In this document: positions 62,901 to 64,000 of the stretch, one piece after another
Position numbering within the stretch: the first letter of the stretch is position 1
Layout: each line of letters begins with the position of its first letter
DNA from: a virus
IMG/VR virus record: IMGVR_UViG_3300045988_154277
Length of the DNA: 64,000 bases
Reading direction: 5' to 3' (one strand)
Program-made: the position numbers and the translations under genes
Notes under the pieces: generated by a model
Told to the model about the DNA's origin: nothing
Databases searched by the model: none
The model's input: only the letters and a program-made list of their open reading frames with translations

Positions 62901-63272
62901 TGGAGTATCGCAGATTACGAAGTGCAGCAGATGGTTATGCAGGATCAGTTAAAAGAGAATGTCGACATCATCAACCCCATCAACGACATCAAGTATCAGG
63001 AGGAGTTCTCCCATGCTGGATTCGCTGGTGGACGGAAGAGTCTGCAGAGTTTTACAGTCCCAGATCGTCAGTATCCGAAAGATGCTGTCGGTATCATCTC
63101 AGAGGCTACCGTCGATAGTGCGAAGACTGCATTCGCAGCGTCCACTTCGATGGATCCGACGATCGTCAATATGCGTGGGATGACACTCACCTCTAACCCA
63201 GATGAGTTGAAACCTACTCAGATCTTGTCGATCAGTTCTTTGATCATGCCTGGAGTGACGCAAGATGATTAA
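59907..63272 (+). CDS. RNA polymerase beta subunit, N-terminal portion (split subunit of second RNAP)
   Basis: GAAGGAGG SD. FSHAGFAGGRKSLQSFTVPDRQYPKDAVGIISEATVDS aligns with beta [37 protein letters not shown]. The C-terminal ILSISSLIMPGVTQDD aligns with [16 protein letters not shown]. It stops exactly where the conserved DANRALMG motif would follow. Confidence 0.65.
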   Translation: MPFTFDMSPSEERLLYDKFFRTNMFRRINDLTRLWNREDLVEYPVGSMLHLIDDNFLMNHPVVLVPDTSGWSMTRKPDRKFVMHIIEPVPATAIPLTETFALPTSGVSVTILNFKKRNQNLMRPVVKMEDFPSPMRPEVQSIISYNALYRARIFGLLRGYRRFNYIFTNIFNTICSIGTGRRHFIPIPVGDKVFDRNKFMTSFIKHDKGSLKLAEDPWYLFMVHFMGWLNTQNTPSLFEKVPEKYWEYINFVLYTRTKVLVLNMKLLKEFNEGNKILWRVMNLINLMAEEGHQAAMQDFGDVPVACDTQEEPGELAVQADTPFTEEKEPIHVTTQETASDRDNQDQSTVPQGSPREEDQVNEVTLQQPPAEPAPKQQEPPSPVKTMFTSPTRRKPIPYLTTQQRVKRETDEFEKYLDFEPQTLTIDPKWLEVEMVEGKQNAPEFKENMTEEEQKTSNQKFLNEIDEGAKTHIENDQHLNNYQAEQAKKLAEAYKNIKVGDKTIEQIIQEVPDDTVATNTLNFLEDDPDIVDKSMLKSSVATFEHDYMKKLFLRDMVMNLTSFNKQGMFLKQVDVEDVSDSLNQLMEYKVTYEDTSKKTHVIRFKLPKVDERGYCYVNGTLSVLKKQRVPLPICKINPTTVTLTSNYNKYLVVRNVTVAHSYINYIESILNKGNTPEHPVVVQLNTKTWNDVTLPYEYTSLAKKYLSIKLSLTETVEFYFNLEGRHQWLRDVGGLLPEDLDLVKSIESDAKCLAVAYVGKRLIGFIDINNIFTVINLDDHTTSASTTIIDFLCEQLNVAPTPLSEWTDFKLLETTVPVIFALCYRYGLSEMLNYTKTQYRILESGERSYRNWSDVVIRFADKTLIIPRSPLVNSMLFAGLNFFQLNKINMEEMDSKDIYYDLLQSKKRSVHFLKGIDNFFDLFVDPISREVLEQMKEPTNARDILIRATQLLTTEDHKPQASSTNFRFRSYEQINSAIYKVLSRSFANYRSKSVGATHKWSIADYEVQQMVMQDQLKENVDIINPINDIKYQEEFSHAGFAGGRKSLQSFTVPDRQYPKDAVGIISEATVDSAKTAFAASTSMDPTIVNMRGMTLTSNPDELKPTQILSISSLIMPGVTQDD

Positions 63273-63289
63273 CATTATAACAGTCCGGT

Positions 63290-63715
63290 ATACCCGAAGA
63301 GGGTGTGCTTGTTACCATTCCTAATACTAGGAAGTTCTTAAGGTTCTACATACTACAACGTAGCTCAAAAGGCAAGCGTGATAGTCGCGAAAGCAGAAAG
63401 AAATGTAGAAATGACCTATGCTGAAATAAAAGCCTGTTACAAGGTGCTAAGGGTTGCTAACAAGGAATTACTAGTAGCGAAGTCTTGTCTATAAGACAGG
63501 ATGTGCTCAACGACTAGGGGGTTAATCGCCCCGTACCCGCCAAGTGGCGCTGGGAAACGGAATGGACCCTAACAGATTAAGCTGAGGGTTTGACATAGTC
63601 TCTACATCTACGGAAAGCGTAGAGCAGAACTTAATGTTCGGGTGATGAGTAACGATCATCACTGAAGATAAAGAGCAAGCGTCAAAATTTAAACATTACT
63701 GAACCGTATACTGGA
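63290..63715 (+). ncRNA. group I intron-like element B (homologous to the beta-prime intron)
   Basis: Shares AGCGTGAT..CGAAAG..AGAAAGAA..GACCTATGCTGAAATAAAAGCCTGT with the intron at 27203-27606. Core CAACGACTAGGGGG...TTTGACATAGTC (P7/P7'). P9-like CTCTAC...GTAGAG and GTGATGA..TCATCAC hairpins. Boundaries uncertain. Confidence 0.45.
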
Positions 63716-64000
63716 AACAGTGTGCGTGCATAGACCCTTTAATTGTCTGGGAGTTCCTAAAGCCTGTTGGACCACAACGTGACTTGTAAAAGTGAGCGTG
63801 ATGGTGACGAAAGTAGAAAGAATCAACAGGATGTCTCATGCTGCAATAAAAGTCTACTTCTAGTAGATGCTAAAAGACAGTAACAATGGATAATCAGCAG
63901 CCGAGATCCTTCACGGAGGATCAGGTTCATCGACTAGACCTGAGAAGGTCGTACCCCTCAAGTGAGGCTGCGGAAATAAGGGTCCGCTAAACGTATCGTA
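63716..64000 (+). ncRNA. group I intron-like element C (truncated by window end)
   Basis: AGCGTGATGGTGACGAAAGTAGAAAGAA...CATGCTGCAATAAAAGTCTAC...TTCATCGACTAG...CTAAACGTAT are the same conserved blocks, in the same order, as the beta-prime intron. Confidence 0.4.

What the first reader, a model, noticed from the sequence alone, without database searches (positions are those of the whole stretch)
63240..64000. Two tandem group I intron-like elements abut the end of the RNAP beta-N gene, exactly at the beta-N/beta-C split point
The 1121-aa beta-N ORF ends (...SLIMPGVTQDD-stop) at the position homologous to bacterial ...[16 protein letters not shown]. The other beta gene in this window (6931..8874) begins at that same position, so this site is the lineage's beta split site. 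Immediately downstream lie two elements that share long conserved blocks with the beta-prime intron (AGCGTGAT-CGAAAG-AGAAAGAA-...CTGAAATAAAAG..., then (C/T)CGACTAG...TAGTC, and CTAAACGTAT near the 3' end). The second is cut by the window edge. Either the beta gene here is still contiguous and interrupted by one or two introns, with the downstream exon beyond the window, or introns occupy the junction of an already-split gene. Either case supports the idea that the split RNAP subunits of these phages arose at intron insertion sites. Three homologous introns in one window also implies an actively homing intron family.
Basis: partly seen in the sequence, partly recalled or inferred. Interest (0 to 1): 0.75.

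Follow-up and report, generated by a model that had tools for sequence, protein, structure and literature searches.

The report
Two tandem introns in phage polymerase gene
A giant gut phage's gene for a virion RNA polymerase subunit is one continuous gene interrupted by two adjacent self-splicing (group I) introns only 17 bases apart; it is a real but fairly ordinary addition to a known habit of these phages, and not evidence for where their polymerase genes were split.

Summary
Window 63270-63673 is a complete 404-nt group I intron. Window 63691-64000 is the first 310 nt of a second, 410-nt intron; I recovered the rest from the source contig. A 17-nt mini-exon (63674-63690) lies between them.

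Natural alleles in related phage contigs carry only intron 1 or only intron 2, which fixes both junctions. Removing both introns gives an uninterrupted 1506-aa ORF. It is colinear with phiKZ gp178 (virion RNA polymerase beta-like subunit) and aligns without gaps to bacterial RpoB across the junction.

The ribozyme fold is supported by Rfam hits (below gathering score), strong covariation across 10 family members, and guide sequences that covary with each exon.

The "lineage split site" premise is wrong. The other beta ORF (6931-8874) starts where it does because a fourth intron of the same family (8876-9281, minus strand) cuts it. Its real 5' exon lies upstream.

Intron 1 sits at a known site, immediately after the two Asp (E. 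coli D675). PhiPA3 (gp210 intron), 201phi2-1 and EL have introns there. Intron 2's site, 17 nt downstream, was not seen in those phages.

No RNA evidence of splicing exists. Verdict: new members of a known kind, moderate interest.

The parts
59907..63269 (+). Exon 1 of the virion-RNAP beta-like gene (phiKZ gp178 orthologue). It ends ...CAA GAT GAT (Q-D-D); its last base is the U that forms the U.G pair at the 5' splice site.
   Evidence: ORF list and translation. Junction fixed by the intron-1-free allele L003/L013. Colinear with phiKZ-like gp178 and bacterial RpoB.
63270..63673 (+). Intron 1, 404 nt, with no ORF. It starts with the TAA that ends the apparent ORF and ends ...GAUAAAG (terminal G). 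Guide sequence AGUC at 63282-63285; P7 at 63512-63516 and 63596-63600; P7.1/P7.2 lie between P7 and P3'; long P5 and P9 extensions.
   Evidence: Rfam RF00028, 43.1 bits, full model. 86/86 consensus pairs intact. Family covariation. Absent from L003/L013. Same site as the PhiPA3, 201phi2-1 and EL introns.
63674..63690 (+). Mini-exon, 17 nt: AGCAAGCGTCAAAATTT. It encodes S-K-R-Q-N plus the first two bases of a Phe codon, corresponding to E. coli RpoB A676-M681.
   Evidence: The same 17 nt is joined directly to exon 1 in L003/L013 and directly to exon 3 in L002/L008/L011. The spliced frame is open.
63691..64000 (+). Intron 2, first 310 of 410 nt. It continues to window-equivalent 64100 (L001 13785-14194) and ends ...ACAAAAG. 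P10 element AUUAC at 63695-63699; guide sequence UGAA at 63700-63703; P7 5' strand at 63932-63936. Exon 3 (L001 14195-15335, 379 codons plus one base) lies outside the window.
   Evidence: Rfam 20.4 bits truncated, 21.7 bits full length in L001. 80/86 consensus pairs intact. Absent from L002/L008/L011. P1 and P10 complementarity.
8876..9281 (-). Fourth family member: a 406-nt intron in the non-virion RNAP beta-C gene (phiKZ gp71-73 orthologue). It lies within the Leu codon of SQRGL|M, one codon from the position homologous to intron 2.
   Evidence: Rfam 36.5 bits. Sequence. Boundaries. P1 GCCU x GGGC with a U.G pair.
9282..9388 (-). True 5' exon of the non-virion RNAP beta-C gene (GTG start preceded by AGGAGG), which the ORF call 6931-8874 misses.
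   Evidence: Matches the N-terminus of phiKZ gp71 and PDB 7ogp chain C.
6931..8875 (-). Exon 2 of the non-virion RNAP beta-C gene (contains the Rpb2_6 domain).
   Evidence: Pfam PF00562, E=1.2e-18. phiKZ gp71-73 structure match, E=3e-53.
27203..27606 (+). It cuts the catalytic NADFDGD motif between D and F of the gp180-like gene. Exon 1 is 25688-27202 and exon 2 is 27607-27786.
   Evidence: Rfam 38.9 bits. Junction from the contiguous KEN51 homologue. Same site as the phiKZ gp180/gp179 intron. PHROG RNAP match.

Best explanation
The window ends inside one continuous gene for the virion RNA polymerase beta-like subunit, the orthologue of phiKZ gp178. Two independent, ORF-less, self-splicing group I introns (404 and 410 nt) interrupt its coding sequence, 17 nt apart.

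Both sit in the most conserved stretch of beta. Intron 1 lies between the codons equivalent to E. coli D675 and A676. Intron 2 lies after the second base of the codon equivalent to M681.

Inferred mechanism. Each intron folds into its own ribozyme core (P1-P9, with P7.1/P7.2). It picks its 5' splice site through a short P1 helix with a U.G pair, made by a guide sequence just 5' of P2. It is excised by the usual two transesterifications that end at its terminal G. Intron 2 also aligns its 3' exon through a P10 pairing, (C/A)UUAC with GUAAG.

Splicing of both joins exon 1, the 17-nt mini-exon and exon 3 into a 1506-codon mRNA.

Shown: sequence anatomy, conserved structure with covariation, guide/exon complementarity, natural one-intron alleles that define the junctions, and colinearity of the spliced product with uninterrupted homologues.

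Inferred: that splicing occurs and is efficient, the order of excision, and how the introns spread, since they encode no endonuclease.
For: 1. Rfam group I matches over the whole model: 43.1 and 21.7 bits.
2. Covariation in 10 family members: 94.1% of cells paired, against 35-42% when the partners are slid. 58 of 86 pairs show compensatory double changes, against 6-18 slid. 0 of 500 shuffles reach the observed values. The two window copies keep 86/86 and 80/86 pairs.
3. Every intron follows a U and ends in G. The guide triplet covaries with its exon: GAU|-GUC, UUU|-GAA, GCCU|-GGGC, GGAU|-GUCC.
4. Natural alleles: L002/L008/L011 have only intron 1, L003/L013 have only intron 2, and L001/L009/L010 have both. 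The exon joins are exactly as predicted.
5. The spliced ORF is open for 1506 aa. It aligns without gaps to bacterial RpoB through DD-SKRQNFVSIHLSHYLPT / [19 protein letters not shown]. It matches phiKZ-like gp178 genes in single tblastn pieces across both junctions.
6. The first 7 nt of exon 3 follow the presence of intron 2 rather than host-gene phylogeny, and they are the bases that pair in P10.
7. Three independent assemblies carry the tandem arrangement. The two introns are only about 56% identical, which excludes an assembly artefact or a recent duplication.
8. Introns of the same family sit at the same DD site in PhiPA3, 201phi2-1 and EL.
Against: - There are no RNA data, so splicing is inferred.
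- All Rfam scores are below the gathering score of 50. Intron 2 scores only about 21 bits.
- P1 helices are short: 3-4 exon base pairs plus 1-2 intron base pairs. Intron 1 has no evident P10.
- In this window's copy of intron 2, the P10 element (AUUAC) and the P1 extension each have one mismatch relative to the copies in relatives.
- No fully intron-free allele was found among 8 alleles.
- No homing endonuclease was found in the introns or in the flanking ORFs I scanned, so the route of mobility is unexplained.
Confidence: 0.85

Rival explanations
1. The gene is truly split here. One or both elements are decayed intron relics that no longer splice, and the phage makes two polypeptides: the 1121-aa ORF and the 398-aa ORF that gene callers predict at L001 14139-15335.
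For: The gene caller on the source contig called exactly these two ORFs. Jumbo-phage RNAP subunits are split elsewhere (PMC7598289). Rfam scores are sub-threshold. There are no RNA data.
Against: All core helices are intact and covary. The guide sequences match their exons. The 19 N-terminal residues of the 398-aa ORF are intron sequence: they are absent from the 99%-identical relative L002, whose match starts at residue 20. No Shine-Dalgarno-like sequence precedes that ATG (sequence). Two polypeptides would lose the six residues SKRQNF of the conserved active-site-proximal segment. All 30 phage homologues listed are contiguous here.
Confidence: 0.07
2. Only one of the two introns is active. 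The other needs a helper (a maturase or host factor) or is spliced inefficiently, and the exon-skipped product (exon 1 joined straight to exon 3) is a substantial out-of-frame by-product that lowers or regulates subunit yield.
For: Exon skipping between neighbouring group I introns has been seen in phage Twort orf142 and in phage SIOphi (PMC11878797). The mini-exon is only 17 nt and not a multiple of three. P1 helices are short, and this window's intron 2 has mismatches in P10 and the P1 extension.
Against: The tandem state persists in three diverged alleles with both ribozyme cores conserved, which argues that it is tolerated. Nothing in the sequence distinguishes this from normal sequential splicing.
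Confidence: 0.06
3. The tandem arrangement is an assembly or chimera artefact of a metagenome that contains intron-1-only and intron-2-only strains.
For: Both single-intron alleles exist in nature. The contigs are metagenomic.
Against: The same order (exon 1, intron 1, 17 nt, intron 2, exon 3) occurs in three independent assemblies (L001, L009, L010) whose flanking exons differ from one another. The introns share only about 56% identity, so there is no repeat to mis-join.
Confidence: 0.02

Closest known systems
PhiPA3 gp210 intron in the vRNAP gene gp211/209 (Birkholz et al. 2024, Science; PMC11620839)
   Same: Same gene (gp178 orthologue) and the same insertion point as intron 1, immediately after the two conserved Asp (E. 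coli D675). Same intron family: shared P7-P7.1-P7.2-P3'-P8-P9 layout and the ...GGG-stem-UAACGA-stem-CUGAAGAU...G 3' end.
   Different: The PhiPA3 intron carries an HNH nicking endonuclease that acts in phage-phage competition. Intron 1 here has no ORF (longest open stretch 50 codons) and a much longer P5 extension. PhiPA3 has no second intron 17 nt downstream.
ORF-less introns at the same DD site in Pseudomonas phages 201phi2-1 (gp273/274, annotated as a joined CDS) and EL (gp186/gp187)
   Same: ORF-less group I introns (336 and 415 nt) after ...HDD in the gp178 orthologue. The 3' exon resumes (M/V)KRxxF.
   Different: Single introns, 46-52% identical to intron 1. The intron 2 site is unoccupied in both.
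phiKZ gp180/gp179 intron and its relatives (e.g. Shewanella phage FishSpeaker)
   Same: Same family and the same site as the window's third intron (27203-27606), between D and F of NADFDGD in the vRNAP beta-prime-like N-terminal subunit. This shows that the family colonises several RNAP genes of these phages.
   Different: A different gene from the one in the finding. The phiKZ copy carries an endonuclease ORF (gp179).
Several group I introns in one phage gene with small internal exons and exon skipping (Twort orf142; phiNIT1 ribonucleotide reductase; SIOphi; PMC11878797)
   Same: Neighbouring group I introns separated by a small exon in an essential phage gene. Exon skipping is a possible by-product.
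   Different: Different phages, genes and intron copies. I could not retrieve the sizes of those small exons, so I cannot say whether 17 nt is unusually short.
T4 td/nrdB/sunY-type (subgroup IA) phage introns
   Same: Extra helices P7.1/P7.2 between P7 and P3', an in-frame stop right after the 5' splice site, and insertion at a highly conserved enzyme motif (structure; subgroup features from my own knowledge of the Michel-Westhof classification).
   Different: Subgroup was not tested with subgroup-specific models. These introns have large P5 and P9 extensions and no endonuclease ORF.

Membership tests
Group I self-splicing intron (Rfam RF00028) | Match to the family covariance model at or above the curated gathering score (50 bits) | tested here: not met
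   43.1 bits (intron 1) and 21.7 bits (intron 2, full length in L001). Both align to the whole model, with E=2.5e-9 and 6e-3 for the 1.3-kb search. The shortfall comes with insertions of about 110 nt in P5 and about 40 nt at P7.1/P7.2 that the general model does not hold.
Group I self-splicing intron (Rfam RF00028) | Conserved core helices P3-P9, including the P3/P7 pseudoknot, supported by covariation | tested here: met
   86 pairs in 17 helices. 94.1% paired, against 35-42% in slid controls. 58 pairs have compensatory changes. P3, P4/P5, P6, P7.1, P7.2 and P9 all covary. P7 (GACUA/UAGUC) is invariant, so it says nothing either way.
Group I self-splicing intron (Rfam RF00028) | 5' splice site after a U that forms a U.G pair in P1 with an internal guide sequence; intron ends in G | tested here: met
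   All 10 intron copies follow U and end in G. The guide triplet at the homologous position covaries with four different exon ends. P1 is short, with 3-4 exon base pairs.
Group I self-splicing intron (Rfam RF00028) | Precise removal restores the host reading frame | tested here: met
   Open 1506-aa ORF after removal. Junctions are identical to natural intron-minus alleles. Gap-free alignment to RpoB and gp178.
Group I self-splicing intron (Rfam RF00028) | Guanosine-dependent self-splicing of the RNA | not testable with these tools
   Needs an in vitro splicing assay or RNA-seq.
Mobile (homing) group I intron | Encodes, or is served by, a site-specific homing endonuclease | tested here: not met
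   The longest open stretches inside the introns are 50 and 62 codons. No Pfam endonuclease domain in 10 ORFs near the introns. No relative of phiKZ gp179 among ORFs of the window and the L001 tail. The rest of the 278-kb genome was not searched.
Mobile (homing) group I intron | Presence/absence polymorphism at the same site among close relatives | tested here: met
   Intron 2 is absent from L002/L008, whose exons are about 95% identical in DNA and 99% in protein. Intron 1 is absent from L003/L013.
Split site of jumbo-phage RNAP beta subunits | Homologous subunits in related phages end or begin at this position as separate genes | tested here: not met
   phiKZ gp178 (1451 aa) and every listed homologue run through the site. 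phiKZ gp71 runs through the corresponding nvRNAP site. The window's own 'beta-C' ORF has an upstream exon beyond an intron.

The most novel reading that the evidence does not exclude
The segment just after the two Asp may be a contested homing hot-spot. Intron 2 sits 17 nt downstream of the DD site, inside the stretch that a PhiPA3 gp210-type endonuclease would probably have to recognise. Together with its P10-linked recoding of the first codons of exon 3, it might act as, or have been selected as, a shield against site-1 intron endonucleases used as weapons between co-infecting jumbo phages.

On this reading the intron-1-only, intron-2-only and double alleles would be stages of an arms race between intron lineages. 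These lineages also hop between the paralogous virion and non-virion beta genes: the nvRNAP intron lies one codon from the homologous position and shares its P9 domain with one intron-2 variant.
Probability: 0.12. Interest if true: 0.6.

Novelty: new member of a known kind. Interest (0 to 1): 0.35.

Why it matters
For annotation:
- What looks like a 1121-aa 'beta-N' plus a 398-aa hypothetical protein is one 1506-aa vRNAP subunit.
- The neighbouring nvRNAP beta-C and vRNAP beta-prime genes are mis-called for the same reason.
- Default Rfam scans miss all four introns because they score below the gathering threshold. Jumbo-phage RNAP 'split sites' inferred from ORF ends should therefore be checked for introns first.

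For biology:
- The finding extends to uncultured human-gut jumbo phages the known tendency of one intron family to colonise the catalytic motifs of chimallivirus-type RNAP genes.
- It adds a second insertion site, 17 nt from the PhiPA3 gp210 site.
- It provides a natural allele series (intron 1 only, intron 2 only, both) that could be used to study intron competition, co-conversion and exon skipping.
- It does not bear on how the RNAP subunits came to be split.

Tried and rejected
- Default Rfam scan of the window: no hits. The permissive threshold was needed.
- megablast of the locus against cultured phages: no match.
- Pfam on the 1121-aa ORF, the beta-prime ORF and the gp74-like ORF: no domains. 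PHROGs and tblastn were needed to identify them.
- phmmer of the spliced beta against all window ORFs, to find the nvRNAP beta-N paralogue: self hits only. I therefore could not locate where the nvRNAP beta-N gene ends in this phage.
- My first guess, that the stretch between the Rfam hits (AELNVRVMSNDHH) was the mini-exon, was wrong. Comparison with L002 and L003 showed that this stretch is the P9 extension of intron 1.
- My guess that phiKZ's gp72 intron sits at the same place as the window's nvRNAP intron was wrong. It lies about 394 residues into gp71-73.
By my own rough estimate of the collection's size, about that many are expected by chance. Only 32 of 124 matches also have the P7 elements downstream. 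I use this only as a rough sign that the family is widespread.
- MAFFT misaligns P2, P8 and, for the beta-prime intron, the whole 3' half. Those helices were left out of the covariation count.
- A covariance model of the family was not built, because the alignment (467 columns) exceeds the 400-column limit.
- The three large protein-database searches, structure prediction and fold searches were not used. The natural alleles and tblastn already settled the questions they could have answered.
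Full report
WHAT IS THERE

The conserved block AGCGTGAT-N5-CGAAAG-N-AGAAAGAA occurs exactly twice in the window, at 63375 and 63795, against none in shuffles. 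A second block, ATG(C/G)TGAAATAAAAG, links both copies to a third at 27332.

The default Rfam scan finds nothing. With the permissive threshold, RF00028 (group I intron) aligns over its whole length to 63266-63624 at 43.1 bits (gathering score 50). It also aligns to 63681-64000 at 20.4 bits, cut by the window edge.

GETTING PAST THE WINDOW EDGE

An exact-sequence look-up of the 1121-aa product returned the source contig, ENA ERZ28568400 BRIT16-1 scaffold_10 (278 kb), with 10 kb downstream (L001; window position = L001 position + 49906). There the second element is a full-length RF00028 match (L001 13794-14142, 21.7 bits).

It is followed by an ORF that resembles the start of the window's other beta-like protein: SHYLPTEKCEVSRLRTGYEK against CQTARIQSGYETK.

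EXACT JUNCTIONS FROM NATURAL ALLELES

Scans of viral and metagenome contigs with the downstream exon returned eight informative alleles:
- Both elements: L001, L009, L010.
- Only the first element: L002=L008 (protein 99% identical) and L011 (93%).
- Only the second element: L003=L004=L013 (about 80%).

Where an element is missing, the flanking exons are joined directly. This fixes the parts as follows:
- Exon 1 ends at window 63269 (...CAA GAT GAT).
- Intron 1 is 63270-63673 (404 nt).
- The mini-exon is 63674-63690 (AGCAAGCGTCAAAATTT).
- Intron 2 is 63691 to window-equivalent 64100 (410 nt).
- Exon 3 starts at L001 14195.

Every intron copy follows a U and ends in a G. Conceptual splicing gives an open frame of 1506 codons reading ...GVTQDD-SKRQNF-VSIHLSHYLPTEKC....

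THE SPLICED PRODUCT IS ONE ORDINARY SUBUNIT

- A 363-aa query spanning both junctions matches 303 phage records by tblastn. All 30 listed rows are single pieces crossing the junctions, annotated as RNA polymerase beta subunit.
- In a phiKZ-like phage and in phiKZ itself the gene is one 4356-nt CDS, gp178.
- phmmer aligns the spliced sequence without gaps to bacterial RpoB: sislimpgvtqddskrqnfvsihlshylpt against [31 protein letters not shown].
- Intron 1 therefore lies between the codons equivalent to E. coli D675 and A676. Intron 2 lies in the codon equivalent to M681.

THE ELEMENTS ARE STRUCTURED RIBOZYMES, NOT JUST MOTIF MATCHES

I aligned ten family members: five copies of intron 1, four of intron 2, and the nvRNAP intron described below. 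RNAalifold recovered P3, P4/P5 with a long P5 extension, P6, P7.1, P7.2, P9 and a P9 extension.

With P7 added as a pseudoknot, the counts on this structure are:

| Measure | Observed | Partners slid by 1-3 columns | Shuffles |
|---|---|---|---|
| Cells forming standard pairs | 94.1% | 35-42% | 0/500 reach the observed value |
| Pairs (of 86) with compensatory double changes | 58 | 6-18 | mean 37, 0/500 reach the observed value |

The window's own copies keep 86/86 and 80/86 of these pairs. The misses are register shifts in the alignment.

The guide sequence, at the homologous position just 5' of P2, covaries with four different 5' exon ends, always with U.G at the splice site:
- GAU| with GUC (intron 1)
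- UUU| with GAA (intron 2)
- GCCU| with GGGC (nvRNAP intron)
- GGAU| with GUCC (beta-prime intron)

Intron 2 also has (C/A)UUAC next to its guide sequence, complementary to GUAAG at the start of exon 3 (P10).

The exon context follows the intron:
- L001 and L002 differ at 5 of the first 7 exon-3 bases, all synonymous (C GTA AGT against T GTC TCC). The next difference is at base 37, and the overall difference is 5%.
- L003 is 24% diverged overall, yet it is identical to L001 over the first 15 bases.

This fits co-conversion, selection for P10 pairing, or both.

The two introns are only about 56% identical to each other. The tandem state occurs in three independent assemblies. It is therefore neither a recent duplication nor a mis-assembly.

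THE 'SPLIT SITE' PREMISE FAILS

A permissive Rfam scan of the whole window revealed a fourth group I match, at 8929-9292 on the minus strand (36.5 bits). It lies directly upstream of the 'beta-C' ORF 6931-8874.

Its boundaries are 8876-9281. Upstream of it, an AGGAGG-preceded GTG at 9388 opens a 35-codon exon encoding VKTSQFVSDLNVRPELTGTPALLSPFLQFISSQRG. That exon carries the missing ...PFL...SxR... part of the motif.

The protein is the orthologue of phiKZ gp71-73 (PDB 7ogp chain C, E=3e-53). That chain's first ~33 residues extend beyond the ORF's Met. phiKZ gp71 reads straight through the position: SSARGAMFVTH against SSQRGL|MLSSN.

So the ORF 'begins at the same position' because an intron is there. 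It is not a subunit boundary.

The nvRNAP intron lies in the Leu codon of SQRGL, one codon from the position homologous to intron 2. phiKZ's own gp72 intron in that gene is elsewhere, about residue 394.

According to the published review, vRNAP and nvRNAP beta split at different positions. The review also credits the 'splits derive from intron mobility' idea to Lavysh et al. 2016 (PMC7598289). Nothing here adds evidence for that idea.

COMPARISON WITH WHAT IS KNOWN

Intron 1's site is already known:
[quoted passage not shown] I confirmed this in the PhiPA3 sequence.
- 201phi2-1 gp273/274 is annotated as a joined CDS 'interrupted by a mobile ...'. It has a 336-nt ORF-less intron after HDD.
- EL gp186/gp187 are separated by a 415-nt ORF-less intron after HDD.

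All of these share the 3' architecture of the window's introns, including the hairpin with a (G/U)UAACGA loop followed by CUGAA...G.

The window's third intron (27203-27606) cuts NADFDGD between D and F. phiKZ's gp180/gp179 intron sits at the same place, and Shewanella phage FishSpeaker has an intron after the end of its gp180-like ORF.

blastn finds pieces of the family in Enterococcus, Staphylococcus, Lactococcus and Bacillus phages.

A small exon between two group I introns, and exon skipping, have been reported in other phages (PMC11878797).

What I did not find elsewhere is an intron at site 2 of a gp178 orthologue, or the two-intron arrangement. My survey covered only the records inspected individually (phiKZ and the phiKZ-like KEN51, PhiPA3, 201phi2-1, EL), the 30 tblastn rows listed, and eight metagenomic alleles.

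MOBILITY

The introns have no ORF: the longest open stretches are 50 and 62 codons. Ten ORFs near the introns have no endonuclease domain. No gp179-like protein is encoded in the window or the L001 tail.

The presence/absence pattern and the exon-flank signature show gain or loss in the recent past. The agent is unknown. It could be a free-standing or foreign endonuclease, recombination during co-infection, or reverse splicing.

The P9 domain of L003's intron 2 is 71% identical to the window's nvRNAP intron, but only 45% identical to the window's intron 2. This suggests recombination between intron copies.

VERDICT

- The 'contiguous gene with two introns' alternative is strongly supported, at about 0.85. 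The gap is the lack of RNA evidence.
- The 'split point' claim and the evolutionary inference drawn from it are not supported.
- These are new members of a known kind, with a new second site and a tidy natural allele series. Interest is moderate (0.35).

Noticed in passing
window 8876-9281 (-), with exon 9282-9388 (-): A fourth group I intron of the same family interrupts the non-virion RNAP beta-C gene (gp71-73 orthologue). The ORF call 6931-8874 misses a 35-codon 5' exon that starts at a GTG preceded by AGGAGG.
   Followed up: yes
window 27203-27606 (+): The 'beta-prime intron' splits the catalytic NADFDGD motif between D and F of the gp180-like subunit. Exon 2 is only 59 codons (27607-27786). 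phiKZ has an intron at the same site, carrying the gp179 endonuclease; Shewanella phage FishSpeaker has an intron directly after its gp180-like ORF, with a 62-aa ORF downstream.
   Followed up: yes
L003 5619-6035 compared with window 8876-9281: The P9 domain of the intron 2 variant in the 80%-diverged relative is 71% identical to this window's nvRNAP intron, but only 45% identical to this window's intron 2. This suggests modular recombination between intron copies sitting in paralogous genes.
   Followed up: partly
window 9440-9466, 24475-24501, 54885-54911, 59262-59288: A 27-nt AT-rich motif (...AGTAATATATA...; on the minus strand ...TATATATTACT...) recurs in intergenic regions. One copy lies about 50-75 nt upstream of the nvRNAP beta-C start. 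It may be a phage promoter; this was not tested.
   Followed up: no
window 22414-22489 and 23738-23813: Two copies of a 76-nt sequence, 71% identical and 1324 nt apart, each containing an internal inverted repeat (AACCG...CGGTT-like). Nature unknown.
   Followed up: no
L003 and L004 (IMGVR_UViG_3300045988_163688, 361 kb): The same locus appears twice in one contig, at 87420-100592 and, inverted, at 260449-273621. The 361-kb contig is therefore probably an assembly concatemer or inverted duplication of a genome roughly half that size.
   Followed up: no
L135 (201phi2-1 gp273/274 intron) compared with L006 (phiKZ gp180 intron): The 201phi2-1 intron at the beta DD site is 72% identical to the 3' part of the phiKZ intron in the beta-prime gene. 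That is closer than either is to the introns of this window, and implies transfer of one intron lineage between different RNAP genes in Pseudomonas jumbo phages.
   Followed up: partly
window 3351-8874 (-): The gene order nvRNAP beta-C (gp71-73-like), a 638-aa RNAP subunit (PHROG 3015, gp74-like), then a helicase matches phiKZ genes 71-75. A phiKZ-type internal head protein and a lysozyme lie at 23893-25567. The host is therefore a phiKZ-like jumbo phage from the human gut.
   Followed up: partly
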